Below, piece after piece: positions 355 through 48,830 of a stretch of DNA of 64,000 nt (within the stretch, counting starts at the first letter, position 1; every line of letters begins with the position of its first letter). This DNA comes from a virus. Taxonomy: Duplodnaviria > Heunggongvirae > Uroviricota > Caudoviricetes. Location: positions 109,064 through 173,063 of the IMG/VR virus record IMGVR_UViG_3300031998_000001, one strand, 5' to 3'. The notes beneath the pieces are model-generated. The model was not told the DNA's origin. It made no database searches and worked only from the letters and a program-made list of their open reading frames with translations. The translations under genes and the position numbers were made by a program.

Positions 355-1254
355 ATGTACATTCAGTATTCGGAACAGATAAGCAATGACGCGAAGACGG
401 TCAAGGAGAAGTTGTCCGAAGCGGACTTGGCACTTGTGATAAAGGACATAACCAAGCGTGTTGTGTTCGGGTGCGTGTGCCTTGTTTCGGAAAGGGAACT
501 CGACGGTGTTGCGGGCGACAGCCTGTGGCGCAATTCGGCAAGGGAACTCATCTCGTACGACAACATAGGCGACTATCTGGGCTACTTTGCGAAGGGCAAA
601 ATCCGTATGCTTCCGTACCTCCGCCCTATGGAGAGTATGACGGAGGACGAGAGGGCGGAAATCCGCGTACTCATTCAGGAGAACTACAAGGAGCCGTACG
701 GGGAAGTGAAGATGTCGGGGGCGGACAATTTGTTGCTTTCGGTTTCGCTTTCGACGGAGGTCGTTTCCGACTACCTCGACTCACGGCAGTTCGACTGGCG
801 CGGGCTTATACCGAAGGGGCTTGCGGTTAAAATGGACGATGAGGTCTATGACAACTACAAGAGGCTATTCAAGGCATCGTACGCAGTCGGCTCGGAGTTC
901 CTGAAGAACGGTGGTAAGGAAACGGAAGCCGACAGCAAATACACGGACACCGTGCTTCTTTTCGGGGGAATCAATCCCGATGGCAAGCCCGACTACGAGT
1001 GGGGCTGTGTGCGAGGCTGGAGGGAGGCTGGCGCAATCTGCGTGACCATTCCCGCTTGCATTGCGGAATATGCGTTCGCGAACAGGGAACGGAAGGATTT
1101 TGCGAAATTCGTTGCCGACCTGAAGGAGCATATTGATTGTGCGTACAAGTCGTTCCCTTTGGACTTGCAGACAGTACACGACATAGATGCGAGCGTAAAT
1201 GCGTATTGCAAGGTGTTCAAGGACACGGACAAGTATTTGATTGTTAAGAAATAA
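355..1254 (+). CDS. hypothetical protein (299 aa)
   Basis: ATG-initiated ORF, packed tightly against its neighbours. No motif recognised. Confidence 0.6.
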   Translation: MYIQYSEQISNDAKTVKEKLSEADLALVIKDITKRVVFGCVCLVSERELDGVAGDSLWRNSARELISYDNIGDYLGYFAKGKIRMLPYLRPMESMTEDERAEIRVLIQENYKEPYGEVKMSGADNLLLSVSLSTEVVSDYLDSRQFDWRGLIPKGLAVKMDDEVYDNYKRLFKASYAVGSEFLKNGGKETEADSKYTDTVLLFGGINPDGKPDYEWGCVRGWREAGAICVTIPACIAEYAFANRERKDFAKFVADLKEHIDCAYKSFPLDLQTVHDIDASVNAYCKVFKDTDKYLIVKK

Positions 1255-1269: not shown

Positions 1270-2679
1270 ATGAGCGATACATTTAGCAAATCAAGTGAGA
1301 TGAGTGCGGAATATTGCTGCACTATTGTAAAGATAGGGGCGTTGAAGCCGATAGAGGGTTCGGATTTCCTCGCAACTACGGAGATAAACGGGCGCACGAT
1401 AGTAGTGCGCAAAGACCAAGTGAACGAGGGCGATGTTATGTTCTATGCGTCCAACGAGTCCCAGATTGACGCGGAGTTCCTCCGTGCCAACTCATTGTTC
1501 GAGGACAGGACTATGAACGCAGACCAAGAGCACAAGGGCTACTTCAACAAGTACGGGCGTGTCCGTATGGTCAAGTTGCGCGGAGTGCTTTCGATGGGGT
1601 ACATATTCTCCCTTGAGGAACTCGAAAGGTACGACCACATCGACATTACCCAGAGTGAACTCGAACACTTTGTCGGGGTGGACTTCGACGAGGTGAACGG
1701 CAAGTTGTTCATCAAGGCTTTCGTACCGCCTATGGCGTGCAACGGACACGGGAGCAGGGGTGCTGGCGGAAAGCCGATTAAGAGGGTGAACAGGCTTATT
1801 GCTGGCGAGTTGAGGTTTCATTATGACACGAACCAGTTGGAGCGCAACCCAGAGAAGTTGCAACCGTTCGATAGTGTGGCTATTTCGGTAAAAATGCACG
1901 GAACTTCGGGAATCTTTGCTAACATACCAGTCAAAGTTCCGTTGTTCGGAGGGTGGTATGCACGCAAGTTCAACCGACTCCCGAAGTGGCTTCGCTTTAT
2001 GAAGAAGGGCTATGACACGATATATTCTTCGAGGAAGATTATCCAGAACCCGTTTGTTGACTATGACACCGAGTTCAAGGTCAAGTCGGAGTATGACGAG
2101 TGGTACTCGATACTCAACGGGTGCATACCCCGCAACATTACAATCTACGGCGAGATAGTCGGCTACAAGCCGAGCGGGAAGGCTATACAGAAGAACTTCG
2201 ACTACGGTTGCAGGCAGGGAGAATCTGCCCTTATGATATACAGGGTGAAGTACCGCGACAAGCATACATCGCGCGAGTTCAGCGTGAACGAGGTCGTTGA
2301 CTTTACCCTTGACCTCCGCGACAGGCTCGAAGCGACGAAGAGTGCGGAGGTCGCATCAAGGCTCATTGCCTTGCCAGTGCTTTTCCACGGCTCGCTCGCG
2401 GACTTCTATCCCGACATACCGAAGGACGGGAACTGGGGGGCGAATGTCCTCGAAAGGCTCAAGACGGAAAAGAAGTTCGGTATGGAGCAGAACGAGCCTC
2501 TGTGCAGGAACAAAGTTCCGCGCGAGGGCATAGTCGTCCGCATAGACGGGGACTGCATTGCCGAAGCCTTCAAGTTGAAATGCCTGAAGTTCTTGGGCAA
2601 GGAGGCGGAGATGATTGACAAGGGTGAGATAGATGATGACGAGATGCTCTCCCGCTACGGCGATGGCGGTGAAATCTGA
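1270..2679 (+). CDS. ATP-dependent RNA ligase, Rnl2/Rnl5-like nucleotidyltransferase
   Basis: Covalent nucleotidyltransferase motifs are all present and in order. Motif I is KMHGTSG (compare T4 Rnl2 KIHGTN). Motif III is IYGEIVG. Motif IV is EGIVVR. Motif V is FKLKCLK. About 200 aa of N-terminal extension precede motif I. Confidence 0.7.
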   Translation: MSDTFSKSSEMSAEYCCTIVKIGALKPIEGSDFLATTEINGRTIVVRKDQVNEGDVMFYASNESQIDAEFLRANSLFEDRTMNADQEHKGYFNKYGRVRMVKLRGVLSMGYIFSLEELERYDHIDITQSELEHFVGVDFDEVNGKLFIKAFVPPMACNGHGSRGAGGKPIKRVNRLIAGELRFHYDTNQLERNPEKLQPFDSVAISVKMHGTSGIFANIPVKVPLFGGWYARKFNRLPKWLRFMKKGYDTIYSSRKIIQNPFVDYDTEFKVKSEYDEWYSILNGCIPRNITIYGEIVGYKPSGKAIQKNFDYGCRQGESALMIYRVKYRDKHTSREFSVNEVVDFTLDLRDRLEATKSAEVASRLIALPVLFHGSLADFYPDIPKDGNWGANVLERLKTEKKFGMEQNEPLCRNKVPREGIVVRIDGDCIAEAFKLKCLKFLGKEAEMIDKGEIDDDEMLSRYGDGGEI

Positions 2680-3495: not shown

Positions 3496-3566
3496 GGGGC
3501 TGAAGCCCCAGAGAGAAGGCTATCGGGGGACACTCCGAAACGCCATCATAATATATCGTTATTGCT

Positions 3567-3740
3567 ATGGCGACATTCCAAGAAGTGTTTGACGAGATGC
3601 TCGCACGGCTTGAAAAGGCTGACGCGGAGATAAAGGAGAAAGACCTGATAATACACGACCTCGAATGCCGTGTAGCCGACTTGGAGAAACGGCTTGGGCG
3701 CATAACGAAGAAGAAACCGAAGAAGAAATCCGAAATTTAG
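3567..3740 (+). CDS. small coiled-coil protein with basic tail (57 aa)
   Basis: ATG ORF verified codon by codon. It is below the 60-aa track cutoff and sits in an otherwise empty 280-bp gap. Heptad-like pattern (LEKADAEIKEKDL...LEKRL) followed by KKKPKKK. Confidence 0.35.
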   Translation: MATFQEVFDEMLARLEKADAEIKEKDLIIHDLECRVADLEKRLGRITKKKPKKKSEI

Positions 3741-3778
3741 GATACGGACTTGCCCTTCGGTCTTGTGTTAGGCACACA

Positions 3779-5038
3779 TTAAAAGATTTTCTCGATTTCC
3801 TCTATGTATTTTCTACCGAACAGCGTATCGACAATCTTCCTTGCGAACGCCTCCTGCCTCTTGTCAACATCTGGTCTGTCGAGTTCTTTGTCTGAAATGT
3901 AATAGTTGATGCAAACTTCGACATCCCCGTCCAGATGCTTCCAATTTTCTTCGTCCATATATTGAACTGCAAACTCCACATTGCCTGCTCTGGTTCTTTC
4001 TTTTGAATACGGCTCAAACCTGCCCCTCTTCCAAACCGTGCCCCACGAGCATTCGTATCCGTTGCGCTTGAAATCCTCTTCATATGTATCTTCCATATCA
4101 TCTTGCCCTATTACCTCTACATCAAAATACTCACTCATAATTTTTCCAACGTAGATGCACATATCGTAAGGGTGTACACAAAACGGATAGCATACACCGT
4201 TGTCTTTGTATTCGTCATATAGGGGGGAACGCCCTCTATCTAAATTTGGTAGTGCGCGATACCCAAATTGCTTCAAAGCATTGTTAAATTTTCTTATGGT
4301 ATTTTCACCTGAAAATGATTTGTATTTTTCAACACCGTCCCAGTCGGTATTGTAGAAGTCAAAGTGCTTTTCCCACAACGGATAGAGGAAAGCGTCGATG
4401 TCTATGTGTATTGTTATTTTGTTTTCCTTTTCGGAGTGCGGGTCATACACCCGTTCAACATCCCAGTCGTTGACGATGCCTTGCTTGCGGTATTTGTCTG
4501 GCGCATTTGTAATGCCCCGTTCCAGTTTGTCCGACATAATCTTCCTGACATACCTGCTTCCGTCCCCATTGTAGAGTTTACCGTCCTTGCCGAGCAGGAG
4601 TTTGCTCCCGTCAACAACCACGCTTGCTATGATTGTGACACTCGACCTTGTGTCTGGTGTCTTGATTAGGTACGGGGTGAGGGGTGTCAAGTCAACCACC
4701 TCTACGCCTTTCGGCAATATAGCACCGTCAAGCATATCGCTCTGTACTTTGGCGCACGCCTCAAAGTCCTTTACACCAGAATATGTTACTGTGTGCTCGT
4801 GGTCTTTTCTGTCTTTCGATACAGCCTTTATACCAGCGTTCTTGTCCTTTGTGATTTCCTCGAACCAGATGTCGCTTATCAGGTTTCCGTTCCTGTCGGT
4901 CAGGTTGTAAAGCCCGTTCCTGTTCTTCACAATAAAATATGTCGAATCAAATATGTCGAACTCTTCATAGTCCTTGAACATATTTGGTCTCACCGCCATT
5001 TCATTGATAAATTCTTCAACTTTCAATATGCGTATCAT
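3779..5038 (-). CDS. hypothetical protein (about 419 aa), opposite orientation to flanking genes
   Basis: Long minus-strand ORF. The track start at 5044 is TTG; the first ATG is at 5038. No motif recognised. Confidence 0.55.
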   Translation of the reverse strand: MIRILKVEEFINEMAVRPNMFKDYEEFDIFDSTYFIVKNRNGLYNLTDRNGNLISDIWFEEITKDKNAGIKAVSKDRKDHEHTVTYSGVKDFEACAKVQSDMLDGAILPKGVEVVDLTPLTPYLIKTPDTRSSVTIIASVVVDGSKLLLGKDGKLYNGDGSRYVRKIMSDKLERGITNAPDKYRKQGIVNDWDVERVYDPHSEKENKITIHIDIDAFLYPLWEKHFDFYNTDWDGVEKYKSFSGENTIRKFNNALKQFGYRALPNLDRGRSPLYDEYKDNGVCYPFCVHPYDMCIYVGKIMSEYFDVEVIGQDDMEDTYEEDFKRNGYECSWGTVWKRGRFEPYSKERTRAGNVEFAVQYMDEENWKHLDGDVEVCINYYISDKELDRPDVDKRQEAFARKIVDTLFGRKYIEEIEKIF

Positions 5039-5126
5039 AATCAATATAGTTTATATGCTATCTTATTTATATTCTATGCTGGGCTTAAATATATAAATAA
5101 GTTGATTACAAATTATTTACATTCTT

Positions 5127-7508
5127 ATGGGAGAGAAAGAACAGGCTAACACGACCGTCTGGTCGTCGAAGTCGGTGGCGAAATATACCGATGACATAGA
5201 CTCTGGCGTTGAGCGCAAGGGAGAGTCCCCGTTCTTTATGGGCAACAAGAAGTATCGCAAGGCAAATCTATTGTTTGAATATACGCAGGAGGAGGTTGCC
5301 GAACTGCTCAAGTGCAAGAATGATGTCCGTTACTTCGCCAACCACTATGCGTGGGTCAAGAACGCTGCCGAGGGTGGTGCCGTCGCGCAGATAACATTGA
5401 GGGACTATCAGGAGGATGTCCTCAATGTCATTGATGAAAACAGGTTCTCAATTATTCTCGCAAGTAGGCAGTCGGGGAAATGCTCGATACATTCGACTAT
5501 AATTGATACGGAGAACGGCGAGAAACGGGCGATTGGCGAATTGTTCGATGACGGTGATACATTCCTGTCAAGGGTTAAACGCTTCTTATATAAGTTGCAC
5601 GGCATACGCTTCATCAAAAATATCACAGGGCATTTGATACAGTTCATTGAACACATCGAGAACAGGGGCAAGGCGGTTTATGACGGCAAGTTCATTGATG
5701 AGCAGGACATATCGCTTATGGTGAAAAGTGATACGGGGTTCGTGCCCGCCACGAAGGTATATAAGACAAAGCCGTACAATGTGTACGAGGTCTTTTTTAC
5801 GGACGGCACTAAAATAGAGTGTGCGGACACCCATATATTCTTTACAGGTGAACTTGCGGAGGTATTCTGCAAGGACTTGAAGTCAGGCGACCGCTTGTTC
5901 GGGGACGGGTGCATAAAGACCGTAAAGAGTGTCAGACGACATAACTACAAGTTCTGTATGTACGATGTGTCAGTTGACGATGACACGCACAGGTACTATA
6001 CCAACGGGGTGCTGTCCCATAACACTATCAGTTCTTCGATATACTTGGCTTGGTATCTCCTGTTCAACTATGACAAGAATGTCTTTCTTACCGCGAACAA
6101 GGAGCGCACCGCCCGCGATGTGCTGTCGAAAGTTCAGGAGATAATAGAGAATGTGCCGTTCTTTATGAAACCGGGCATATTGAAGTGGGGTGCGCTCGAC
6201 CTGAAGTTCGACAACGGTTGCAAGTGCATTGCCGAATCGACAACGCCCCGCTCTGGTATCGGCTTCACAATCAACCTGCTCTACTTGGACGAGTTCGCCC
6301 ACGTCGAGAAAGGCATCATAGACGAGTTCTACTCCAACATTATGCCTACCGTAACATCACTCCCAGACAGCAAGATTATCATCACTTCGACACCGAACGG
6401 AATGAACCTGTTTTATGAAATCTACTCGGCTGCGGAGAAGGGGCTTAACGGCTTCAAGCCGTACAGGATAGACTGGTGGCAAGTTCCCGACTGGGACAAG
6501 AACCAGCGCAAGTGGGTGAAGCGAGACGAGGAGTGGATGGAAAGGACGATAGCGATACTCGGAGGCGAGGACAGGGAACTCGGTCTTGAACGCTTCGGTG
6601 CGCAGTACGGCAACTCGTTCTTGGCTACGGGCAACCTGCTCATATCCCCGAACGGCTTGAAGCGTATGGAGGAGAGCAAGGTGCAGTTCGTTCAGGACGA
6701 GAGCGACATATTCGACAGGTACGAGATAGAGGAGGCGAAGTACCTGCGGTGGCATCCAGATATTGATGTGCCGTCGCTGAAAACCAACACGAAGGACTTT
6801 TTCCTCATAAGCGTTGACCTCTCGGAAGGCAACGGGGGCGACTTCCTCGTGTCGGACATTTTCCGCGCTGGGGTTATGTCCCGCGAGGATGTTGAGGCAT
6901 TGCACACCCCGAACAAGATTTCCGACTATGTGTGCTTGGAGCAGGTCGGGGTATGGGCGCACAACTATATGTCCCTGAAGAACTTTGCGAAGTTCCTCTA
7001 TGTGCTGACGCACAAGTTGATGAACCCAGAGAATTTGAAGATAATCCTCGAATGGAACGCATTTGGCGGGGAGGTTATGTCGGAACTCGGATATGTGTTC
7101 GGGGACAGGAACGACTTCTCGAAGGATGTCATACTCAAATTCAAGCACAGCATAGACAGCGACATATACAAGTACGGCTTGAAGGTCAATGCCGAGAACA
7201 AGAAGATACACTGCCAGATGATGCGCACCAACACGGCTTGCGGGCGTATGATAGTCCACGACATACCGACCATAAAGGAGTTCAACCTGTTCGGGCTACG
7301 GAAGAACAGTTATGCCGCCATAACGGGGCACGACGACTTGGCGATGACCTGCGTGAACGCAAACGCCTTCTTCGAGACGAGGGCTTTCGGGTGGATTTCC
7401 GACAATGTGATTGCGGAGAGCGGGCGTATGCAGGAACTGCTCGATGCGATGAAGGTCAACGGTGACCCCGATGTCGAGTACGGGAGCATATATTCGGCGG
7501 CATTCTGA
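5127..7508 (+). CDS. terL: terminase large subunit, intein-containing
   Basis: Walker A ASRQSGK|T is interrupted by an intein. Walker B-like LLYLDEFAHV is present. The C-terminal nuclease-like half is present. The size fits once the intein is removed. Confidence 0.85.
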   Translation: MGEKEQANTTVWSSKSVAKYTDDIDSGVERKGESPFFMGNKKYRKANLLFEYTQEEVAELLKCKNDVRYFANHYAWVKNAAEGGAVAQITLRDYQEDVLNVIDENRFSIILASRQSGKCSIHSTIIDTENGEKRAIGELFDDGDTFLSRVKRFLYKLHGIRFIKNITGHLIQFIEHIENRGKAVYDGKFIDEQDISLMVKSDTGFVPATKVYKTKPYNVYEVFFTDGTKIECADTHIFFTGELAEVFCKDLKSGDRLFGDGCIKTVKSVRRHNYKFCMYDVSVDDDTHRYYTNGVLSHNTISSSIYLAWYLLFNYDKNVFLTANKERTARDVLSKVQEIIENVPFFMKPGILKWGALDLKFDNGCKCIAESTTPRSGIGFTINLLYLDEFAHVEKGIIDEFYSNIMPTVTSLPDSKIIITSTPNGMNLFYEIYSAAEKGLNGFKPYRIDWWQVPDWDKNQRKWVKRDEEWMERTIAILGGEDRELGLERFGAQYGNSFLATGNLLISPNGLKRMEESKVQFVQDESDIFDRYEIEEAKYLRWHPDIDVPSLKTNTKDFFLISVDLSEGNGGDFLVSDIFRAGVMSREDVEALHTPNKISDYVCLEQVGVWAHNYMSLKNFAKFLYVLTHKLMNPENLKIILEWNAFGGEVMSELGYVFGDRNDFSKDVILKFKHSIDSDIYKYGLKVNAENKKIHCQMMRTNTACGRMIVHDIPTIKEFNLFGLRKNSYAAITGHDDLAMTCVNANAFFETRAFGWISDNVIAESGRMQELLDAMKVNGDPDVEYGSIYSAAF
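5481..6023 (+). other. mini-intein (181 aa, Hint domain, no homing-endonuclease domain) inside terL P-loop
   Basis: Starts with Cys immediately after the Walker A lysine (CSIHSTIIDT, block A). Block B is ECADTHIFFT. Blocks F/G are MYDVSVDDDTHRYYTNGVLSHN followed by the extein Thr. Confidence 0.8.
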
Positions 7509-11209: not shown

Positions 11210-11506
11210 ATGGAACGGGGAATACTTAAATATCACCTGCTTGCGTTCATTACGGTATGCGTGCTTGTGTGGGGAGGCTGTCAGGAGATGAGCGACAGCG
11301 AGGTGCAGAAGGAGTTCAATATGTCGAGGACGGACAGGCTTGAACTCACGGGCTACGGTAAACTCGTTGACACGCTCCACATCGGGGAGACTTTCTATTC
11401 ATACGCCATAATGCACGACAAGGAGAGCGACCGCGAGTTCGCGGTGATATGGTTCAGAGGTGGCAATCCAGAGATAGTGTATCTCGGAAAGGACGAGGGG
11501 GAATAG
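11210..11506 (+). CDS. putative secreted/lipoprotein
   Basis: N-terminal hydrophobic signal ending VWGGC. Confidence 0.5.
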   Translation: MERGILKYHLLAFITVCVLVWGGCQEMSDSEVQKEFNMSRTDRLELTGYGKLVDTLHIGETFYSYAIMHDKESDREFAVIWFRGGNPEIVYLGKDEGE

Positions 11507-11508
11507 TT

Positions 11509-11970
11509 ATGGGAAGGAAGTACACGAACTTATTGCAGGAAACACTGGAGGCGGCTGGCTACAAGAGCGTCACCGAGTTCGCCCGAAAGATAATGTTCGC
11601 CCGCGTGGGTATTGACACGACAGTACCGCAGGAAAGGGCATACCTGAAGGAGAATGCGGTTGACGAGTACGGGCATACGAGGTTGTTCCTCACGCTTCCG
11701 CCATATCATATGGAGGAGGATGCCCACCTGTTCGCCAATATGCTTGATGTCCTCTACTACAACGGATTCGGGACGCAGGAAGTGTTCGGGGAGATTGCAC
11801 TTGCGGACGGGCAGTGGCTCTCCCGCAAGGAGTATGACGGAAGCGAGGAGTGGGAGTTGTGCTATTATCCGTCTTGGAACGATATGTGCAACGCCAACTG
11901 GAACGACGAGTTCAGGGACTGCAAGTTAAAAATAAATGAAAGCGATGAAAGCGAAGAAGAACATAGTTGA
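11509..11970 (+). CDS. hypothetical protein
   Basis: ATG MGRKYTNLL after an RBS-like GGGGGAATAG. In-frame with track ORF 11449. Confidence 0.5.
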   Translation: MGRKYTNLLQETLEAAGYKSVTEFARKIMFARVGIDTTVPQERAYLKENAVDEYGHTRLFLTLPPYHMEEDAHLFANMLDVLYYNGFGTQEVFGEIALADGQWLSRKEYDGSEEWELCYYPSWNDMCNANWNDEFRDCKLKINESDESEEEHS

Positions 11971-12472
11971 GAGGGGCAAGGAGTTGTCCTTCCTGTTGAG
12001 GCACGACAAGGAATATGCCTTTGACGAGCACGGCTGGCGCGAGGTCGCCGACCTGATTGAAAGGCACGGTTACACGATGGATGAACTCGAAGAGATAGTT
12101 GCGACCAACGACAAGAAGCGGTACGAGTTCTCGGATGACAGAAAGCGCATACGCGCCCGTCAGGGGCATAGCGTCGATGTCGATGTGGAATTGAAGGAGT
12201 GCGTACCGCCCGATACATTGTATCACGGGACTGCCGCAAGGTTCGTTGACCAGATACTCCGCGAGGGCATTACGAAGCAGTCGAGGCTTTATGTGCATTT
12301 GTCTGCGGATGTTTCGACAGCGTTCAAGGTCGGAAAGCGTCACGGGACACCATCGGTGCTTGCGGTGGATGCTATGGAAATGGTGGCGGACGGGCATAAG
12401 TTCTATTTGAGCAACAACGGTGTCTGGCTCACGGAGTATGTGCCGACCAGATACCTCAATGTCGTGATGTGA
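11936..12472 (+). CDS. RNA 2'-phosphotransferase Tpt1/KptA family
   Basis: Family motifs present: LSFLLRH (Arg-His), IRARQGHS, LYHGT, LYVHLS, VGKRHG, NNGVWLTEYVP. Confidence 0.75.
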   Translation: MKAMKAKKNIVERGKELSFLLRHDKEYAFDEHGWREVADLIERHGYTMDELEEIVATNDKKRYEFSDDRKRIRARQGHSVDVDVELKECVPPDTLYHGTAARFVDQILREGITKQSRLYVHLSADVSTAFKVGKRHGTPSVLAVDAMEMVADGHKFYLSNNGVWLTEYVPTRYLNVVM

Positions 12473-12474: not shown

Positions 12475-12536
12475 TTTTTCTGAAATTCCTATTTATTCAC
12501 TATATATTAGTGATGAAAGGAAAAACATCAGGAACA
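12475..12536 (+). promoter_or_regulatory. conserved promoter/5'-UTR cassette, copy c
   Basis: TTTTTCTGAAATTCCTATTTATTCACTATATATTAGTGATGAAAGGAAAAACATCAGGAACA, then ATG. Confidence 0.55.
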
Positions 12537-13163
12537 ATGGAAAGCAACAGGACATACAAGTTCGTAAGGATACACAGGAAGAACAGCGGCGAGTACGGCA
12601 CTTGGTATTTCAAGCCCCGCACCCGCGAGGATATGGAACTCCACTGGAAGGAGATTTGCGGTGCGCAGATGCGCCAGCACTGTCGGGAGCGTTTCGGTGG
12701 AATGACGGTTGCGGAAGGCAGGGACGGTAAAGCCTCCGTCCATTTCCCTCACCCCACGACAGAGTTCGGTATGGGCGTTGACGCTTTCGTTTCCGCCACG
12801 AACGCTATGTATGTGGAGGGTATGCTCAATGTGGAGAACGAGGCTTACAATTCCCGTATGCGTTCTTTTGACAGGGGCGAGGAAATCTACCTTGCCGAAG
12901 GTATGGTGGTGTTCAGCCTTGACGAGCGTTTCTGCGAGATTGCGGAGGAGGTCGAGAGCGAGAAGTTCGCATATCCGACAAAGAAGGCTTGGGACTTGGG
13001 TGATGTCCGCTATATGCAGTGGAATATGCTCGGCAATGTCGGTACGCACTGGTACGCAAAGGTGGGCAACCGAGACATTGTTGACAGGGACGGCAATATG
13101 AAGTGGAACACCCGCGTGGAGGCGGAGAGCGCAGCGAAGTATTTTCTGGAAACACTTGCATAA
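12537..13163 (+). CDS. hypothetical protein
   Basis: First ATG after the cassette, in-frame with track ORF 12510. Confidence 0.55.
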   Translation: MESNRTYKFVRIHRKNSGEYGTWYFKPRTREDMELHWKEICGAQMRQHCRERFGGMTVAEGRDGKASVHFPHPTTEFGMGVDAFVSATNAMYVEGMLNVENEAYNSRMRSFDRGEEIYLAEGMVVFSLDERFCEIAEEVESEKFAYPTKKAWDLGDVRYMQWNMLGNVGTHWYAKVGNRDIVDRDGNMKWNTRVEAESAAKYFLETLA

Positions 13164-20701: not shown

Positions 20702-21502
20702 ATGAAGGACGCATTAGGCGACAGGATGAAAAGGTACGAGGCGAACGCGGACATAAGGCTTGTCCGCAGGACACCCGTGATAATAAGGATTGACGGCAAG
20801 GCTTTCCACACATTCACAAAGAAGTTCGACAAGCCGTTCGACCAAGTTTTTATGAAGGCTATGTTCGGGACGGCTCTGACATTGTGCGAGAACATACAGG
20901 GCTGTCGGCTCGGCTATACCCAGAGCGACGAGATTTCGCTCCTGCTGACCGACTACGAGAAACTGAACACAGACCCGTGGTTCGACAACCGCATACAGAA
21001 GATGTGCTCGATAGCCGCCTCGATAGCGACGCTCGCATTCAATCGGGCTTTCGAGCGTGCGGTAAGGGAGATTTCGGGGGAATATCCAGCCGAAAAGGTT
21101 GCGACATACAAGAGGAGCATTGCAATGGGCGGGATTTTCGATGCACGCGCATACAATGTCCCGAAGGACGATGTTACCAACTACTTCCTGTGGAGGCAGA
21201 ACGATGCCACCCGCAACTCGATACTTGGGGTAGGTCAGAGCGAGTTTACGCGCAAGAGGCTGATGAACAAGTCGTGCGACGAGATACAGGAGATGCTCTT
21301 TTTGGAGAAGGGCATAAACTGGAACGACTACGACACACCTCTCAAGAGGGGCGTGTGCATAAGGAAGGTCGGCAAGGAGGTCAACGGCACAGTGAGGAAC
21401 TTCTGGGAGATAGACTACGATATTCCGATATTCAGGGGCGAAGGTCGGGAGTATGTCGAGCAACTTGTGTTTCCAAACATTGACGAAAATGGAAGGGAAT
21501 AA
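20702..21502 (+). CDS. Thg1-like protein (tRNA-His guanylyltransferase family; 3'-5' nucleotide addition enzyme)
   Basis: MKRYEAN...RTPVIIRIDGKAFHTFTKKFDKPFDQ...GYTQSDEISLLL. This matches the Thg1/TLP core VVRIDGRAFHKF..KP.D...AYGQSDEISF. Confidence 0.7.
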   Translation: MKDALGDRMKRYEANADIRLVRRTPVIIRIDGKAFHTFTKKFDKPFDQVFMKAMFGTALTLCENIQGCRLGYTQSDEISLLLTDYEKLNTDPWFDNRIQKMCSIAASIATLAFNRAFERAVREISGEYPAEKVATYKRSIAMGGIFDARAYNVPKDDVTNYFLWRQNDATRNSILGVGQSEFTRKRLMNKSCDEIQEMLFLEKGINWNDYDTPLKRGVCIRKVGKEVNGTVRNFWEIDYDIPIFRGEGREYVEQLVFPNIDENGRE

Positions 21503-21742: not shown

Positions 21743-22399
21743 TTGGTCTTGATGAAGAAGTCGGAGGACAGGATAATGTTTCGGAGCGGTGACAGGTACG
21801 GGATAGCGGACGGCTATGACATTGACGGAAGGTACATATACCCGAAGTCGGCGCAGGTTACAATGGACACCAACGGCAATACGGGCGTGTACTTCACCGA
21901 CAAGTTGTGGACACCGCCGAGCGCAACGGCAGTCCTTTCGGATGATGAGTATGTTGCTTTGAATCGGGAGTTTATGAAGTTGAGGAAACTTACGGATATA
22001 CAGCGAAGCACGCTTGACGCTATGGTAACTGCGAAACTGCGCAGGTCGGAGTCGAAGGAAGGTGACGGCATCGTGTTCGGCAGGAAGGTGCTTGTCCGCG
22101 ACATAGGCGGGGACAGGAACACACGTTACGGGATAGCGGAAAGTTGCACGGTGTCGGAGAACGGACGCACACTCAATCCGAAGTCACCGAAGACAGTGAT
22201 GGAAAGTCTCGGTATTACGGGCACATTCTTCGACAGCAGGTACTGGATTGTGCCAGAAACAATGTTTGTTCTTACGGATAGTGAATACGATATGCTTGAA
22301 GCAGGCTTCACGGAGATAAGGGAGATTATGGGCGCACAGCGCAATGCGCTTGTCGCGCTCGGAGAATTAAAGTTAAGGGGTGAAACGAATGAAAACTAA
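21743..22399 (+). CDS. hypothetical protein with twofold internal duplication
   Basis: DRYGIADGYDIDG...YFTDKLW...LSDDEY...L is repeated later as TRYGIAESCTVSENG...FFDSRYW...LTDSEYDML. Confidence 0.55.
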   Translation: MVLMKKSEDRIMFRSGDRYGIADGYDIDGRYIYPKSAQVTMDTNGNTGVYFTDKLWTPPSATAVLSDDEYVALNREFMKLRKLTDIQRSTLDAMVTAKLRRSESKEGDGIVFGRKVLVRDIGGDRNTRYGIAESCTVSENGRTLNPKSPKTVMESLGITGTFFDSRYWIVPETMFVLTDSEYDMLEAGFTEIREIMGAQRNALVALGELKLRGETNEN

Positions 22400-23291
22400 A
22401 ACGAACAATAACGGACTGAAGATGGTCATATTGCAGGGTGTTCCCGCAAGTGGCAAGACGACTTGGGCGAAGGAGTTCACCAAGAAGAAAAAGAACTGGG
22501 TGATTGTTTCCCGCGATGCCCTCGAAGAAGCGTCTGGCGGTTGCAAGGGCGTAAACCAGAACGGCTATGTGAACCAACTCGTGAAGTTCTCGATTATGAG
22601 TGCTTTCGAGAGGGGGCTTAATGTCGTGGTTGACGGTATGAACCTTGCCACAGACGAGGTGCAGGTGCTTCAGGACATCGCAAGGGACTACGGCGCGGAG
22701 GCGGAGCGCAGGGAGTTCCGCATAAGCCTGCCCGATGCGCTCGAACGGAACGCCAAGCGCACGGACAAGCACATATCGCCCGACAAAATAAAGGAGTTGT
22801 ATCGGGAGTACATCCCAGAGGAGTACAGGTATTACAACACCGACCACCGCAGGATAATGAATGCCAACCCAGACCTCCCGCCAGCCGTGATATGCGACAT
22901 AGACGGGACTGTGGCGTTGAGGAACGGGCGTTATGTGTTCGACAACCAGAAGGCGATAGAGGATACTTTCGACCCGCGTATGAAAAGACTGCTCTCGTTG
23001 CTCGAAAAGTCGGGCGTTGAAATCATATTCCTTTCTGGTCGGGAGGGGACGGATGAGTGCAGGGATGTAACGGAACGCTGGCTTGCGCTTCACGGCTTCG
23101 GGCATTGCAAACTCCTTATGCGCCCGAAGGGTGACAGCAGAGGCGACGAGGATGTCAAGTACAGCCTGTGGCATACGCTCGTAGCACCCAACTATGATGT
23201 GGTTGCGGTGTTCGACGACAGGGACTGCGTGGTGAAGATGTGGAGAAGTCTTGGGCTTCTGTGCAATCAGGTCTATTACGGAAACTTTTAG
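22389..23291 (+). CDS. pnk: polynucleotide 5'-kinase / 3'-phosphatase (T4 Pnk-like, Pnkp)
   Basis: N-terminal P-loop VILQGVPASGKTTW. C-terminal HAD-type phosphatase DIDGT (DxDxT) with SGREG and FDDRD. The track start 22380 is GTG; ATGs are at 22389 and 22422. Confidence 0.75.
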   Translation: MKTKTNNNGLKMVILQGVPASGKTTWAKEFTKKKKNWVIVSRDALEEASGGCKGVNQNGYVNQLVKFSIMSAFERGLNVVVDGMNLATDEVQVLQDIARDYGAEAERREFRISLPDALERNAKRTDKHISPDKIKELYREYIPEEYRYYNTDHRRIMNANPDLPPAVICDIDGTVALRNGRYVFDNQKAIEDTFDPRMKRLLSLLEKSGVEIIFLSGREGTDECRDVTERWLALHGFGHCKLLMRPKGDSRGDEDVKYSLWHTLVAPNYDVVAVFDDRDCVVKMWRSLGLLCNQVYYGNF

Positions 23292-23589: not shown

Positions 23590-24036
23590 ATGGCAAGGGA
23601 ATTATCGGCGGGAATAATAATAAAGTGCAAGAGTGGCTACCTTATGTGCCACCCGACAGGAAGGAAGTACGAGCGCGGGAACTACGACATACCGAAAGGT
23701 CACGTGGAGGGCGATGACAATACATACCTCGATGCCTGCCTGCGCGAACTCGAAGAGGAGACTGGCATAGTGCTCTCGGAGAACGATGCAAGGCAAATCA
23801 GGACGATAGGTCGCACGGACTACAACCCGAAGAAAGACCTCTACCTGTTCTACCTGTGGCTTCCGTACGACATAGACACGAGGAAACTCACCTGCAAGTC
23901 TATGTTCACCGCGAAGGACGGGCGGGAAGTCCCAGAGATGAACGGGTATATGCTCTCTATGGACATTGGCTGGCTCTATCCGAATATGAAGAAGGTGTTT
24001 GACCGGCTGCTCGACATTGACGGCAACCTGATTTAG
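23590..24036 (+). CDS. Nudix hydrolase
   Basis: Nudix box GHVEGDDNTYLDACLRELEEETGI (Gx5Ex7REUxEExGU). Confidence 0.75.
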   Translation: MARELSAGIIIKCKSGYLMCHPTGRKYERGNYDIPKGHVEGDDNTYLDACLRELEEETGIVLSENDARQIRTIGRTDYNPKKDLYLFYLWLPYDIDTRKLTCKSMFTAKDGREVPEMNGYMLSMDIGWLYPNMKKVFDRLLDIDGNLI

Positions 24037-24718: not shown

Positions 24719-26050
24719 ATGAAAACAACTGAAAACAGCAAGAGTATCGATGCCACAGGCAACGAACTTGCAAGGAAATACAATCTGACGCTCAACCCGA
24801 CCACAGGTCTGTACGACTGCGACGGGGATGTTAAGGTCGGAAAGGATTTGGTTAAGGACGGAAGACTGGTCATTAGGTTCGGAACGGTTGATGGGGGATT
24901 TGATTGTAGCAAGAACAAACTGACATCTCTTGAAGGTTGCCCGCAGAAGGTTGATGGATTTTTTGATTGTAGTGTCAACAACCTGACTTCACTTGAAGGT
25001 GCGCCACAGAAGGTCGGCAAGGATTTCTATTGCGACCATAACTACTTGACATCACTCAAGGGTTGTCCGCAGGAGGTCGGCTGCGATTTCTACTGCGAGC
25101 AGAACATCCTGTCTTCACTTGAAGGCGCACCCCAGCGCATCGGCGGGTGGTTCTATTGCGCTAATAATCAACTGACATCTCTTGAAGGCGCACCACGGAA
25201 GGTTGGCGGGCAATTCTATTGCTGGGAAAACAAACTATCTTCCCTTGAAGGAGCACCGCAGAGCGTCGGTGGGGATTTCGATTGTAGCAACAATAACCTG
25301 ACCACCCTCGAAGGAGCACCGCAGGAAGTCGGCAGGAGTTTCGAGTGTAGCGGAAACAGCCTGACATCGCTTGAAGGCGCACCGCAGGAAGTCAGTGGAA
25401 GTTTTGATTGCAGTCATAACAACCTAACATCGCTCAAGGGAGCACCACGGAAGGTTGATAGTAATTTTAATTGCAGTAACAACAAGTTGACTTCCCTCGA
25501 AGGCGCACCAAAGGAAATCATCGGCTGGTTCGATTGCAGTTTTAACAACCTCCCCTCACTCGAAGGCGCACCGCAGGAAGTTGGTGAAGATTTTTATTGC
25601 GTCGGGAACAACCTCGCCACCCTCGAAGGAGCACCAAAGGAAGTCGGCGGGGATTTTTATTGCCAAGGAGATGTATTGGACGGCAAGGGCACGGCTACGG
25701 CTGGAAGCGATAAGGACGACAATGTGGCGTGTAATGCACCCAGCACTACGAAAACGAAAATCAATGTCATAGTCCGCACGGACGAAGGCTTCACGGTGGA
25801 AACCCACCACCCGCTTGTCGAGGCAAGACTCGCAAAGGAGTTCTGCGACAAGGTGGCGAAGGAAGGCGGGGAGCACAATGTCAATACCGTTTCCACGGAT
25901 GCGACGGATGTGTATTACACATACGCCACCGAAGTATTGGGCATTGAAGTCCACATTTATCTTGACGGGAAGGAAGTTACGATGCCTGAACTTTTTACAG
26001 ATTACAACAAGTCGATAGACTATTGCGCTGAAATTCTGGGGAGGGAATAA
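24719..26050 (+). CDS. tandem-repeat protein: about 14 copies of a 20-residue FxCSxNxLTSLEGAPQxVGG unit, plus a unique C-terminal domain
   Basis: Perfect 20-aa periodicity from residue 56 to about 315. LRR-like Leu/Asn spacing. Confidence 0.65.
   Translation: MKTTENSKSIDATGNELARKYNLTLNPTTGLYDCDGDVKVGKDLVKDGRLVIRFGTVDGGFDCSKNKLTSLEGCPQKVDGFFDCSVNNLTSLEGAPQKVGKDFYCDHNYLTSLKGCPQEVGCDFYCEQNILSSLEGAPQRIGGWFYCANNQLTSLEGAPRKVGGQFYCWENKLSSLEGAPQSVGGDFDCSNNNLTTLEGAPQEVGRSFECSGNSLTSLEGAPQEVSGSFDCSHNNLTSLKGAPRKVDSNFNCSNNKLTSLEGAPKEIIGWFDCSFNNLPSLEGAPQEVGEDFYCVGNNLATLEGAPKEVGGDFYCQGDVLDGKGTATAGSDKDDNVACNAPSTTKTKINVIVRTDEGFTVETHHPLVEARLAKEFCDKVAKEGGEHNVNTVSTDATDVYYTYATEVLGIEVHIYLDGKEVTMPELFTDYNKSIDYCAEILGRE
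24884..25663 (+). repeat. 60-nt-period coding tandem repeat array
   Basis: Repeated ...TTGATTGTAGCAACAACAACCTGAC..CTCGAAGGAGCACCGCAGGAAGTCGG... units. Confidence 0.7.
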
Positions 26051-26051: not shown

Positions 26052-26432
26052 ATGGATGCAAACAAGGAATACGCACAAAGCCTAATGAAGTTTTGGGAGA
26101 AGAATTTTAACAAGTTGGACAGAACCCAGTTCGAGAAGGGCGATATGCCCAAATCACTCGGAAAGTGGCTGTATGAAATTGAGCATTACAAGGATGTAAG
26201 GCATTGGTCTGTAATGGAGGCTGCTTGGCTCGGTCTTGGGTGGTACAAGGGTGACAGGCAAAACCTTCCGTGCCGTTTCAATGAAGAGAACAAGAAAGTG
26301 CCAGAGGGCTATTTCCTATGGGACTATGACGGGGAGCAGTTCCTCGTTGATTGCGAGACGCACGATGCGTACCGCACGAGGAAAGTGGAGAAGGTGATAA
26401 GATACGAGGTGTATGAACCGATAAATGAATAA
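26052..26432 (+). CDS. tandem paralogue pair D, member 1
   Basis: KEYAQSLMKFWEKNF...GYFLWDYDGEQFLVD...YEVYEPI. Confidence 0.55.
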   Translation: MDANKEYAQSLMKFWEKNFNKLDRTQFEKGDMPKSLGKWLYEIEHYKDVRHWSVMEAAWLGLGWYKGDRQNLPCRFNEENKKVPEGYFLWDYDGEQFLVDCETHDAYRTRKVEKVIRYEVYEPINE

Positions 26433-36017: not shown

Positions 36018-36467
36018 ATGGACGACGAAAGAAAGTATATGGACGACGAGAAGTCGATGGCTAACACGCTCCCGTTTGATGCGGAGCAAGCCAAGCAGGG
36101 AAAGCCCGTGTGTACAAAGGACGGACGACCAGTAAGAATATTGTGCTACGACAGGGACAATGACCTTCCGATAGTTGCACTCATAAGGGAGTGGGACGGG
36201 GAACAGAGCGTGGCGACATACACAATGGAAGGCGTTGCGGGGACTGGTGATGCTATGGACAACCTCGCGATAATCGGGGTGGTGTGCAAGGGCTACACGG
36301 CAGTCCTGAAGGACGCACCGTACAACCCAGAAAAGTTGCCCTGCTATAATGACAGGTGCGTGAACGGCTTGATATTCGATAAGCCCGAAGATGTCATCGA
36401 AACTATGAAGAAGTTGGAACTCGCCGATTTGCTTGTGGGAGTTGCCGAAACCAAATGGATTGAATAA
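36018..36467 (+). CDS. hypothetical protein
   Basis: ORF. Confidence 0.5.
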   Translation: MDDERKYMDDEKSMANTLPFDAEQAKQGKPVCTKDGRPVRILCYDRDNDLPIVALIREWDGEQSVATYTMEGVAGTGDAMDNLAIIGVVCKGYTAVLKDAPYNPEKLPCYNDRCVNGLIFDKPEDVIETMKKLELADLLVGVAETKWIE

Positions 36468-36468
36468 A

Positions 36469-37320
36469 ATGCTGAAAGATATGGAAGGAAAGGAGTATAA
36501 AAACAGAGGCGTGGGTGTCGTAACGCTTGTTATGACATTCATAGGAGGCAAGGCTCACATACTTGCCAACCAGAGGGGCGACAAGACTTCCGAGCAGGGC
36601 TTGCTGTGGAACTTGCCGAGCGGATACCTCGACTGGAATGAAACTGCGGAGATGGCTGCGGCGAGGGAAATCAGGGAGGAGTGCGGTGTCGAAATTGCAC
36701 CGAGCGAACTCACGGAACTGGAACACTCGACAGACCCGGCGGAGAACAGGCAGAACATAATGTTCCGATACATTGCGGTCGTGGAAGCCGAACGCCTCCG
36801 CGACTTCAAGGCTATGGACGCGGACGAAGTTAGGGACATAAGGCTCATACCGCTTTCCGACATAGAGCAGTACAGGTGGGCTTGGGGGCAGAACCGCAAG
36901 ATATACCGCCTGATAAACAAGTACAACGAGTATGCGGAGAAGAAGGTTATGACATTCGGCAGGTTCAAGGGCTGTGTAATCGACGAAGCGTTTACAAGCC
37001 AGAATTGGGCATATCTCGAATGGGCTTATAAGAATGTCGGGGAAGTCGTAAAGTGGTTCAAGAACGGCTTGAAAAAGCCCCGTACGGCATATACGCCAAA
37101 GCCCGCTCCAAGCATCAGCCGATATTATGGCTCTGGACACGGCTACGGTGATGACGACGATGATGAGAACAGGCGTTGCGGGAACTGCCCGCACGGTGGC
37201 TACGACTCCTGTTCGGACTACTGCGATGCCTGTCGGCACGACCCAGACACGGGCTGGGGCGGGGAGACCGACCATAGCCTGTGCAGTGATAGCGAGGAGA
37301 CGGGCTGGGGTGGGGATTAG
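36469..37320 (+). CDS. Nudix hydrolase fused to DUF3820-like segment and Cys-rich acidic tail
   Basis: Nudix box GYLDWNETAEMAAAREIREECGV. Middle segment is FGRFKGCVIDE...YLEWAYKN. The tail is CGNCPHGGYDSCSDYCDACRHD plus two GWGG motifs. Confidence 0.65.
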   Translation: MLKDMEGKEYKNRGVGVVTLVMTFIGGKAHILANQRGDKTSEQGLLWNLPSGYLDWNETAEMAAAREIREECGVEIAPSELTELEHSTDPAENRQNIMFRYIAVVEAERLRDFKAMDADEVRDIRLIPLSDIEQYRWAWGQNRKIYRLINKYNEYAEKKVMTFGRFKGCVIDEAFTSQNWAYLEWAYKNVGEVVKWFKNGLKKPRTAYTPKPAPSISRYYGSGHGYGDDDDDENRRCGNCPHGGYDSCSDYCDACRHDPDTGWGGETDHSLCSDSEETGWGGD

Positions 37321-47818: not shown

Positions 47819-47894
47819 TTTTCTGCTACTCGCAGAATTTACACCTGCATTATTATAGTCCCTACCTTTGCGATGTAACCAAAGGCAACGGACT

Positions 47895-48827: not shown

Positions 48828-48830
48828 CTA

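What the first reader, a model, noticed from the sequence alone, without database searches (positions are those of the whole stretch)
11936..12472. Canonical Tpt1/KptA RNA 2'-phosphotransferase that does not fit a T4-type healing pathway
All Tpt1 motifs are present: Arg-His (LLRH), RxQGHS, HGT, VHLS. Tpt1 normally removes the junction 2'-phosphate left by yeast/plant-type (Trl1) ligation. The Pnkp here is T4-like, and T4 Pnk is thought to leave 2',3'-OH ends, so no 2'-phosphate is expected. That raises three possibilities. The ligase at 1270-2679 might work via a 2'-phosphate junction. Tpt1 might act as an NAD-dependent ADP-ribosyltransferase on 5'-phosphorylated RNA/DNA ends, a known side activity. 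Or it might reverse a host-imposed 2'-phosphate mark.
Basis: partly seen in the sequence, partly recalled or inferred. Interest (0 to 1): 0.7.

Follow-up and report, generated by a model that had tools for sequence, protein, structure and literature searches.

The report
Phage copy of RNA 2'-phosphotransferase Tpt1
A huge gut or rumen phage carries an intact copy of Tpt1, the enzyme that removes 2'-phosphates from RNA, alongside other RNA-repair genes; such phage copies are already described, and what RNA they act on is an open question for all bacterial and phage Tpt1 enzymes.

Summary
ORF 11936-12472 (+) encodes a full-length 178-aa Tpt1/KptA (Pfam PF01885, E=3e-43). It is 51.5% identical to the characterised Runella slithyformis Tpt1. 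The catalytic tetrad is intact as R22-H23-R62-R117. The third arginine lies in the KKRY motif, not in RxQGHS.

The window is part of a 387-kb huge-phage contig, probably with a Bacteroidales host. It also encodes an OB-fold RNA ligase of the Rnl5 type (1270-2679), a Thg1-like 3'-5' polymerase (20702-21502), a T4/Pnkp1-type kinase-phosphatase (22380-23291) and two Nudix proteins. No 2H/LigT, Macro or ARH gene is among 101 called genes.

The "misfit" is correct biochemistry but is not peculiar to this phage. KptA in jumbo phages has been described. Bacterial clusters of ligase, HD-Pnk and Tpt1 show the same paradox. I found four more such clusters.

Relatives of the ligase sit beside Tpt1 in two other loci, beside 2H phosphodiesterases in two loci, and beside metallophosphoesterases. 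This gives circumstantial support to a 2'-phosphate junction branch of repair.

Verdict: a new member of a known kind, of modest interest.

The parts
11936..12472 (+). Tpt1/KptA NAD+-dependent RNA 2'-phosphotransferase, 178 aa; catalytic tetrad R22, H23, R62, R117
   Evidence: PF01885 E=3.1e-43. PHROG 5470 E=4.7e-62. 7kw8 RslTpt1 E=6.9e-48. Tetrad columns conserved in 121-123 of 123 sequences; 51.5% identity to RslTpt1.
1270..2679 (+). ATP-dependent RNA ligase, 469 aa: N-terminal OB fold plus nucleotidyltransferase domain, Rnl5/DraRnl/NgrRnl-like. Putative motif I K208-M-H-G, motif IV E419-GIVVR, motif V K435-L-K437.
   Evidence: PF21189 PHA02142 OB E=2.5e-9. PF09414 RNA_ligase E=1.1e-5, 26 bits, just under the cut-off of 27. 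PHROG 968 RNA ligase E=4.7e-44. TIGR02306 RNA_lig_DRB0094 E=5.4e-10. Weak NgrRnl N-domain match. Motif residues invariant against a 36-44% identical homologue.
22380..23291 (+). T4/Pnkp1-type polynucleotide 5'-kinase / 3'-phosphatase, 303 aa (P-loop kinase plus DxDxT HAD phosphatase)
   Evidence: P-loop and DIDGT motifs. PF25109 HAD_PNKP 7.2e-41 and AAA_33. 4xrp Pnkp1 1.6e-35 and T4 Pnk 1ltq 2.7e-34, full length.
20702..21502 (+). Thg1-like protein (TLP), a 3'-5' nucleotidyltransferase of the type that repairs tRNA 5' ends
   Evidence: PF04446 1.3e-33. PHROG 4717 5.7e-91. Bacillus thuringiensis TLP 4kgk E=3.2e-67.
23590..24036 (+). Nudix hydrolase, 148 aa, 300 nt downstream of Pnkp. A role in processing ADP-ribose derivatives or RNA 5' ends is inferred only.
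   Evidence: PF00293 E=1.8e-10.
36433..37320 (+). Second Nudix protein, 295 aa, with a canonical Nudix box and an ExoX-like C-terminal motif. Its link to Tpt1 is speculative.
   Evidence: PF00293 6.8e-15. Nudix box GX5EX7REX2EEXG at residue 64.

Best explanation
The gene encodes a catalytically competent Tpt1/KptA. The enzyme uses NAD+ to take a 2'-monophosphate off RNA. The 2'-phosphate attacks C1'' of NAD+, which expels nicotinamide and gives RNA-2'-phospho-ADP-ribose. [quoted passage not shown]

The phage is a 387-kb huge phage, probably of rumen or gut Bacteroidales. The gene looks as if it was acquired from that bacterial lineage. It is kept as an accessory part of a multi-enzyme RNA/tRNA break-repair kit: an OB-fold RNA ligase, a T4-type Pnkp and a Thg1-like 5'-end repair polymerase.

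Its most likely job is junction polishing. Host ribotoxins cut tRNA and leave 2',3'-cyclic phosphate ends. Some of these ends are opened to 3'-OH/2'-phosphate, by a host or phage 2H-type or metallo-phosphodiesterase, before Pnkp strips them. If the phage ligase seals such ends, the junction carries an internal 2'-phosphate that blocks tRNA function. Tpt1 erases it. This would be a yeast/plant-style branch of repair running beside the T4-style branch.

Shown here: family membership, an intact active site, the phage context, and co-location with repair genes here and in relatives. Inferred: enzymatic activity, the source of the 2'-phosphate, and tolerance of the ligase for 2'-phosphate ends.
For: Identity and active site.

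The closest characterised relative, RslTpt1 (51.5% identity), is a bona fide internal 2'-phosphate remover (PMC6097658). It is inept at removing terminal 2'/3' phosphates (PMC6573784) and inactive in 5'-phosphate capping (PMC6182162). Homology therefore points to the canonical internal reaction.

The repair kit sits on one strand within 23 kb: ligase, Thg1-like, Pnkp and Nudix.

Recurrent linkage elsewhere:
- A 69% identical Tpt1 lies 3.7 kb from a 36% identical ligase of the same family, between two metallophosphoesterase genes, in another huge-phage contig (L007/L008).
- A window-type ligase lies 1.8 kb from Tpt1 in L070.
- Tpt1 lies 0.65 kb from a Thg1 homologue in phage-like L091.
- A PF09414 ligase lies 5 kb from Tpt1 in L022.
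- Four cellular loci from four lineages carry RNA_ligase + HD-Pnk + Tpt1.

Window-type ligases also sit beside 2H phosphodiesterases: PF13563 0.9 kb away in L031, and PF08302 (fungal tRNA-ligase CPD domain) 3.7 kb away in L033. From established knowledge of the family, not tested here, 2H enzymes open cyclic phosphates to 2'-phosphates.

The closest cellular homologues (60-67% identity) are rumen or gut Prevotella and other Bacteroidales. Gene starts have A-rich upstream regions with few Shine-Dalgarno motifs, which fits a Bacteroidota host.

Published comparative work assigns phage KptA to this role.
Against: No 2H/LigT, Metallophos, HD, Macro or ARH family is detectable in any of 101 called genes of the window at Pfam E<=0.01. 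None was recorded in the 10 kb upstream.

The phage's own Pnkp type removes 2'-, 3'- and cyclic phosphates completely.

Tpt1 is 9.3 kb from the ligase and 9.9 kb from Pnkp, separated by many unrelated small genes. This is not an operon.

Eight of ten ligase-homologue loci outside this phage have no Tpt1 within 10 kb. One of them (L034) has the same metallophosphoesterase neighbourhood but lacks Tpt1. The ligase family clearly does not depend on a phage-borne Tpt1.

From my own knowledge, not checked here, characterised Rnl5 ligases contact the terminal 2'-OH, and none is known to accept a 2'-phosphate.

In most cellular genomes the Tpt1 neighbourhood is not conserved.

No experiment exists for any phage Tpt1.
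Confidence: 0.5

Rival explanations
1. Tpt1 acts as an ADP-ribosyltransferase that caps 5'-monophosphate RNA or DNA ends with ADP-ribose in a single step. This would protect or mark phage or host nucleic-acid ends, or block their ligation or degradation.
For: The activity is documented for a subset of Tpt1 enzymes (PMC6182162). It has been proposed as the bacterial and mammalian function (PMC12678800; PMC11833690). In Prevotella genomes the 67% identical Tpt1 is directly flanked by an ADP-ribosylglycohydrolase. In L038 it is fused to gp30.3 and NT5C domains and followed by an ARH. ARH-type enzymes reverse 5'-phosphate ADP-ribosylation.
Against: RslTpt1, the closest characterised relative, was inactive in DNA 5'-capping. 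No ARH, Macro or PARG reversal enzyme was found in the window. In phages the recurrent neighbours are ligases, phosphoesterases and Thg1, not ADP-ribose hydrolases.
Confidence: 0.13
2. Tpt1 erases an internal RNA 2'-phosphate that was installed by a kinase rather than by ligation. The mark could be an ArkI-like tRNA modification (2'-phosphouridine 47) or a host defence kinase that inactivates tRNA or phage RNA.
For: KptA is the proven eraser of ArkI-written 2'-phosphouridine 47, in vitro and in E. coli. ArkI homologues exist in some bacteria (PMC9095486). The window encodes no enzyme that would generate a 2'-phosphate.
Against: ArkI is mainly found in thermophilic archaea. No RNA 2'-kinase defence system is known to me. 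No evidence was gathered that Bacteroidales hosts carry ArkI. Co-location with ligases and end-healing enzymes fits break repair better.
Confidence: 0.1
3. Tpt1 is an NAD+-dependent end-healing back-up. It removes terminal 2'- or 3'-monophosphates from broken RNA, overlapping with or replacing the Pnkp phosphatase.
For: Clostridium thermocellum and Aeropyrum Tpt1 remove terminal 2'- and 3'-phosphates. Chaetomium Tpt1 removes terminal 2'-phosphate (PMC6573784). Jumbo phages often carry redundant repair enzymes.
Against: RslTpt1 (51.5% identical) and human Tpt1 are ineffective on terminal phosphates. The phage already encodes a HAD phosphatase of the type that does this job.
Confidence: 0.1
4. 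The relevant substrate is not RNA. Tpt1 transfers the 2'-phosphate of NADP(H), or of another small nucleotide, to NAD+, and so alters cofactor or signalling-nucleotide pools during infection. Alternatively, the gene is a recently captured host gene with no selected role.
For: Tpt1 can use NADP(H) as a phosphate donor (title and significance statement of PMC10622864). The gene is patchily distributed among related phages and is host-like in sequence.
Against: The gene is conserved at 90-97% identity in several independent metagenome contigs of this phage lineage. Its active site is intact throughout. It recurs near RNA-repair genes in several phage lineages.
Confidence: 0.07

Closest known systems
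Runella slithyformis Tpt1 and its four-gene cluster (ligase, HD-Pnk, Tpt1, MTase-HIT)
   Same: It is the closest characterised enzyme (51.5% identity, E=6.9e-48), of the same length, with an identical catalytic tetrad. It likewise sits near an ATP-dependent ligase and a kinase-phosphoesterase, so it has no obvious source of 2'-phosphate. It comes from Bacteroidota, like the inferred host lineage.
   Different: Here the healing enzyme is a T4-type kinase-HAD rather than HD-Pnk. The ligase is a 469-aa OB-fold type with no pairwise similarity to the ~265-aa PF09414 ligases of such clusters. The genes are spread over 23 kb of a phage genome rather than forming an operon.
KptA genes of jumbo phages (Iyer, Anantharaman, Krishnan, Burroughs, Aravind 2021; Iyer et al. 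2022)
   Same: It is a stand-alone KptA in a very large phage that also encodes ATP-dependent RNA ligase, PNK-HAD and Thg1. These genes are predicted to clean up 2'-phosphates in tRNA repair.
   Different: Those authors pair KptA with phage 2H and Macro domains, and none is seen in this window. This lineage is absent from the isolate phage collection at DNA level. Its protein is only 43-52% identical to isolate-phage KptA.
Yeast/plant tRNA splicing: Trl1 (CPD, kinase, ligase) plus Tpt1
   Same: The final enzyme and its chemistry are the same. A 5' kinase and an ATP-dependent ligase are present.
   Different: No 2H CPD domain was found. The ligase is not of the Trl1 type, and no 2'-phosphate requirement has been shown for it. 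The phosphatase domain of Pnkp would destroy the 2'-phosphate that Trl1 needs.
Phage T4 Pnkp-Rnl1 tRNA repair
   Same: The kinase plus DxDxT phosphatase healing enzyme is homologous (E=2.7e-34 to T4 Pnk). The presumed purpose, countering anticodon nucleases, is the same.
   Different: T4 has no Tpt1 or Thg1. The ligase here belongs to a different family (Rnl5-like, not Rnl1 or Rnl2).
ArkI/KptA reversible tRNA 2'-phosphorylation (2'-phosphouridine 47) in archaea
   Same: A KptA acts on an internal tRNA 2'-phosphate that does not come from ligation.
   Different: No ArkI-like kinase was seen here. That system belongs mainly to thermophiles.

Membership tests
Tpt1/KptA RNA 2'-phosphotransferase (PF01885) | Full-length match to the family profile above the curated threshold | tested here: met
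   148.3 bits against a cut-off of 26; profile positions 4-176 of 177. PHROG 5470 E=4.7e-62.
Tpt1/KptA RNA 2'-phosphotransferase (PF01885) | Catalytic Arg-His-Arg-Arg tetrad (RslTpt1 R16/H17/R64/R119; yeast R23/H24/R71/R138) | tested here: met
   R22, H23, R62 and R117 align to the RslTpt1 and CthTpt1 tetrads. Positions defined in PMC6097658.
Tpt1/KptA RNA 2'-phosphotransferase (PF01885) | NCBIfam equivalog-level score for 'RNA 2'-phosphotransferase' | tested here: not met
   The best model, NF002014, scores 207.7 bits against a cut-off of 239. This is below the strict naming threshold of these narrow subfamily models. It reflects divergence of the phage/Bacteroidales clade, not a missing feature.
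Tpt1/KptA RNA 2'-phosphotransferase (PF01885) | Two-lobed fold with an NAD+-binding C-terminal lobe | not tested
   No structure prediction was run for Tpt1. Gap-poor end-to-end sequence alignment to solved structures 7kw8 and 6e3a makes the fold very likely.
Tpt1/KptA RNA 2'-phosphotransferase (PF01885) | NAD+-dependent transfer of an internal RNA 2'-phosphate | not testable with these tools
   Needs an enzyme assay or yeast tpt1-delta complementation.
Yeast/plant-type healing-and-sealing pathway (2H CPD + kinase + 2'-phosphate-dependent ligase + Tpt1) | A 2H cyclic phosphodiesterase that produces 3'-OH/2'-phosphate ends | tested here: not met
   No gene with a paired HxT/S motif and no 2H Pfam family among 101 window genes. 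No Pfam family is on record for any gene in the 10 kb upstream. About 313 kb of the genome could not be read.
Yeast/plant-type healing-and-sealing pathway (2H CPD + kinase + 2'-phosphate-dependent ligase + Tpt1) | A ligase that requires or accepts a 2'-phosphate at the 3'-OH end | not testable with these tools
   The ligase is Rnl5-like, not Trl1-like. Homologues lie next to 2H genes in L031 and L033, which is only suggestive.
T4-type Pnkp-Rnl repair | Bifunctional P-loop 5'-kinase plus DxDxT 3'-phosphatase | tested here: met
   Full-length matches to Pnkp1 and T4 Pnk; P-loop and DIDGT motifs present.
T4-type Pnkp-Rnl repair | Rnl1- or Rnl2-family ligase | tested here: not met
   Hits are to PHA02142 OB, DRB0094-type and NgrRnl (Rnl5) only.
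Runella-type bacterial cluster (PF09414 ligase + HD-Pnk + Tpt1) | HD-domain phosphoesterase fused to a P-loop kinase, adjacent to the ligase and Tpt1 | tested here: not met
   No HD domain in the window. The window Pnkp matches only the kinase part of an HD-Pnk (E=0.002). The cluster itself was recovered in L038, L053, L063 and L083.

The most novel reading that the evidence does not exclude
The OB-fold ligase family represented by 1270-2679 can seal, or even prefers, 3'-OH/2'-phosphate ends. Huge phages of Bacteroidales would then run a complete yeast/plant-style tRNA repair route: a 2H or metallo-phosphodiesterase makes the 2'-phosphate end, the ligase seals it, and Tpt1 removes the junction phosphate. 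The Tpt1 would be either phage-borne, as here, or borrowed from the host. This would give the long-sought natural source of internal 2'-phosphate RNA for bacterial-type Tpt1 enzymes.
Probability: 0.15. Interest if true: 0.7.

Novelty: new member of a known kind. Interest (0 to 1): 0.3.

Why it matters
Why bacteria, and their phages, keep Tpt1 when no pathway in them is known to make internal RNA 2'-phosphates has been an open question since the 1990s. It is restated in papers from 2018 to 2024.

This locus does not answer it. It adds one more uncultured phage carrying the gene.

Its modest value is as a compact, testable set. It holds one Tpt1, one ligase of an uncharacterised OB-fold subfamily, one T4-type Pnkp and one Thg1-like enzyme. 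In relatives, the same ligase family sits beside 2H and fungal-CPD-like phosphodiesterases. Testing that ligase on 2'-phosphate ends would be a cheap experiment with a clear outcome.

Tried and rejected
**DNA similarity.** A DNA-level search of isolate phages found no match.

**ORF 355-1254.**
- It has no P-loop or DxDxT motif and no family hits.
- Its N-terminal 170 residues belong to a large family of ~140-aa proteins of unknown function.
- It is not a recognisable healing enzyme.

**ORF 12510-13163, immediately downstream of Tpt1.**
- Its homologues in other huge phages are not next to Tpt1.
- I dropped it as a partner.

**Upstream overlapping ORF 11449-11970.** It matches only PHROG 3972, of unknown function.

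**Conserved operon partners of Tpt1 in 80 cellular loci.** Most neighbourhoods are unconserved. The second-largest 'cluster' was the antisense ORF of Tpt1 itself.

**Window ligase against cluster-type PF09414 ligases.** Pairwise comparison found no similarity.

**Reading the rest of the 387-kb contig.** I could not do this, because only genes encoded in the window can be used as anchors. One look-up at the downstream end failed.

**tRNA genes.** I found none in the window.
Full report
**1. The observation**

The ORF at 11936-12472 (+) is real and encodes 178 aa.
- It matches Pfam PF01885 (Tpt1/KptA) over the whole profile at E=3.1e-43.
- It matches PHROG 5470 at 4.7e-62.
- It matches four NCBIfam 'RNA 2'-phosphotransferase' models. 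The best scores 207.7 bits, below that narrow model's equivalog cut-off of 239.
- Against solved structures, the best matches are Runella slithyformis Tpt1 (7kw8, E=6.9e-48) and Clostridium thermocellum Tpt1 (6e3a, 1e-33).

I aligned the query with RslTpt1, CthTpt1 and 120 database homologues using MAFFT. The experimentally defined tetrad is RslTpt1 R16/H17/R64/R119 (PMC6097658). It corresponds to R22, H23, R62 and R117 here. These columns are conserved in 121-123 of 123 sequences.

However, the third catalytic arginine lies in KKRY (R62), not in RxQGHS. Identity is 51.5% to RslTpt1 and 42.5% to CthTpt1.

**2. What the window is**

No isolate phage matches at DNA level. The exact protein is encoded on a 387,452-bp ENA metagenome contig and on shorter JGI and Logan contigs. 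The window corresponds to roughly positions 117.4-181.4 kb of that contig.

Several features mark a huge phage:
- Genes are almost all on the + strand.
- There is a large terminase subunit with an intein (5127-7508).
- There is an amidase endolysin.

Upstream regions of genes are A-rich, and only 25 of 101 carry a Shine-Dalgarno-like motif. The closest cellular Tpt1 sequences (60-67% identity) come from rumen or gut Prevotella, Prevotellaceae, Muribaculaceae and other Bacteroidales genomes. I infer a Bacteroidales host and acquisition of the gene from that lineage.

**3. The repair kit in the window**

All of the following are on the + strand:
- **RNA ligase, 1270-2679.** It has a PHA02142-type N-terminal OB fold and a nucleotidyltransferase domain. 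Hits are PF21189 at 2.5e-9, PF09414 at 1.1e-5, PHROG 968 at 4.7e-44, TIGR02306 (DRB0094 type) at 5.4e-10, and a weak match to the NgrRnl N-domain. Putative motifs I, IV and V are invariant against a distant homologue.
- **Thg1-like protein, 20702-21502.** E=3.2e-67 to the Bacillus thuringiensis TLP.
- **Kinase-HAD Pnkp, 22380-23291.** Full-length matches to Capnocytophaga Pnkp1 (1.6e-35) and T4 Pnk (2.7e-34).
- **Nudix proteins** at 23590-24036 and 36433-37320.

ORF 355-1254, just upstream of the ligase, is not a Pnkp.

A motif scan found no gene with paired HxT/S motifs other than incidental ones in the ligase. Pfam scans of all 101 called genes found no 2H/LigT, Metallophos, HD, Macro, ARH, NADAR or RtcB family at E<=0.01. 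The 10 kb upstream of the window has no Pfam hits on record. The remaining ~313 kb of the genome could not be read.

**4. Is the 'misfit' real?**

In biochemical terms it is. T4 Pnkp converts 2',3'-cyclic, 3'- and 2'-phosphate ends to hydroxyls (PMC3592404). A Pnkp-plus-ligase route therefore leaves no 2'-phosphate.

This is not a peculiarity of this phage:
- Comparative surveys list KptA in some jumbo phages together with ATP-dependent RNA ligases, PNK-HAD phosphatases and Thg1. They assign it to clean-up of 2'-phosphates (PMC7824862; PMC9503650).
- The closest characterised enzyme, RslTpt1, lies in a cluster with a ligase and HD-Pnk. That ligase adenylylates itself but did not seal any ordinary 3'-OH/5'-phosphate substrate tested (PMC6097658).
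- That Tpt1 has no known substrate in bacteria is stated repeatedly and again in the 2022 ArkI/KptA study.

**5. Comparative genomics done here**

*Close relatives of this Tpt1 (64-70% identity)* are mostly on other huge-phage contigs.
- In L007/L008 and L024/L025 the gene lies between two calcineurin-like phosphoesterase genes, next to a DUF2828/DUF7788 protein.
- In L007 a ligase of the window's family (36% identity, E~1e-84) lies 3.7 kb downstream.
- In L022 a PF09414 ligase lies 5 kb upstream.
- In L070 a window-type ligase lies 1.8 kb from Tpt1.
- In phage-like L091 a Thg1 homologue lies 0.65 kb from Tpt1.

*Ligase homologues.* Ten loci outside this phage carry a homologue of the window ligase.
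- Two of them, L007/L008 and L070, have Tpt1 within 10 kb.
- The eight found in IMG/VR (L028-L035) have none.
- One of those eight, L034, has the L007-type phosphoesterase neighbourhood but lacks Tpt1.
- Within 6 kb of the ligase in those eight loci and L070 there are Metallophos genes (4 proteins), P-loop kinases, a CCA-adding-type enzyme, RlaP and a second RNA ligase.
- There are also two 2H phosphodiesterases. One matches PF13563 in L031, 0.9 kb from the ligase. The other matches the fungal tRNA-ligase CPD domain PF08302 in L033.

*Cellular loci.* Among 80 cellular loci the Tpt1 neighbourhood is mostly unconserved. Four loci from four lineages share RNA_ligase(PF09414)-HD-Pnk-Tpt1, which is the Runella arrangement. 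These are a Prevotella MAG, a Clostridium sp., a Muribaculaceae member and a Coriobacteriaceae member. In Prevotella genomes Tpt1 is also flanked by an ADP-ribosylglycohydrolase. In one case it is fused to gp30.3 and NT5C domains.

**6. Interpretation**

The enzyme is almost certainly an active Tpt1. Its nearest characterised relative performs only the canonical internal 2'-phosphate removal. It recurs next to RNA ligases, end-healing phosphoesterases and Thg1 in several phage and bacterial lineages.

The best-supported role is therefore removal of internal 2'-phosphates that arise during RNA break repair. This would be a junction-polishing branch alongside the T4-style branch.

The patchy distribution, the host-like sequence and the presence of Tpt1 in candidate host genomes fit a dispensable accessory gene that some phages carry and others can borrow.

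The source of the 2'-phosphate is inferred, not shown. It could be a host or phage 2H enzyme, a metallophosphoesterase, or a kinase. Lambda phosphatase and a CthPnkp mutant do yield 2'-NMP from cyclic phosphates.

I put 0.5 on this role. The remainder is split between 5'-phosphate ADP-ribosylation, erasure of kinase-written 2'-phosphates (precedent: ArkI/KptA), terminal phosphate healing, and non-RNA or no function.

**7. Dead ends**

**8. Verdict**

This is a new member of a known kind: phage-borne KptA within an RNA-repair gene set.

The interest is modest. It lies in the uncharacterised OB-fold ligase family, whose association with 2H/CPD-like enzymes and Tpt1 makes the 2'-phosphate-junction hypothesis directly testable.

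Noticed in passing
window 5127-7508 (+): The large terminase subunit is 793 aa and carries an intein. The Intein_splicing hit covers residues 187-257, ahead of the Terminase_6N domain at 304-437.
   Followed up: no
window 47868-48827 (+) and ~48000-57000: There is an IS1595-family transposase (DDE_Tnp_IS1595, 4.9e-33). The adjoining ~8 kb has lower GC (0.43), flat or negative GC skew, and genes on the minus strand (51235-56984), unlike the rest of the window. This is probably an inserted mobile segment.
   Followed up: partly
window 20702-21502 (+); L091 9209-10024: A bacterial-type Thg1-like protein (3.2e-67 to the B. thuringiensis TLP) is encoded 1 kb upstream of Pnkp. In another phage-like contig its homologue lies 0.65 kb from Tpt1. 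A Tpt1-Thg1 pairing may be worth a systematic look.
   Followed up: partly
L038 7980-9500 and 9500-10561 (Prevotella sp. MAG JAFQQY010000047.1): Tpt1 is fused in one 507-aa ORF to a T4 gp30.3-family domain and an NT5C 5'-nucleotidase domain. An ADP-ribosylglycohydrolase follows it, and RNA_ligase, HD-Pnk and RtcB lie upstream. This is an RNA-repair and ADP-ribose-processing island in the candidate host lineage.
   Followed up: partly
L031 8591-9112; L033 15302-15745: 2H phosphodiesterase genes lie 0.9 and 3.7 kb from homologues of the window's ligase in other huge-phage contigs. One matches PF13563. The other matches the fungal tRNA-ligase CPD domain PF08302.
   Followed up: partly
L034 2613-5939 compared with L007 6050-10080: Two related phage contigs share a Metallophos - unknown - Metallophos - ligase neighbourhood. 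L007 has Tpt1 (with a GIY-YIG gene) inserted between them and L034 does not. Tpt1 looks like a gain or loss cassette.
   Followed up: no
window 355-1254 (+): This 299-aa ORF sits directly upstream of the ligase. Residues 21-167 belong to a very large family (467 hits) of ~140-aa proteins with no Pfam family and no structural match. The rest is lineage-specific.
   Followed up: yes
window 24719-26050 (+): This is a 443-aa leucine-rich-repeat protein with about 13 near-identical 'LTSLEGAPQxV' repeats (BspA-like). Homologues at 40-44% identity lie near the ligase in L029 and L035.
   Followed up: no
window 26052-26432 and 26425-26826 (+): These are two adjacent paralogous small genes (126 and 133 aa) with clearly similar sequences, apparently a tandem duplication.
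   Followed up: no
L006 13269-16981 compared with window 3565-5044: A sibling contig that is identical through the ligase and amidase carries two TnpB/IS605 OrfB genes and an RlaP nucleotidyltransferase. The window instead has a minus-strand 421-aa ORF of unknown function at that position. This is a variable spot next to the repair genes.
   Followed up: no
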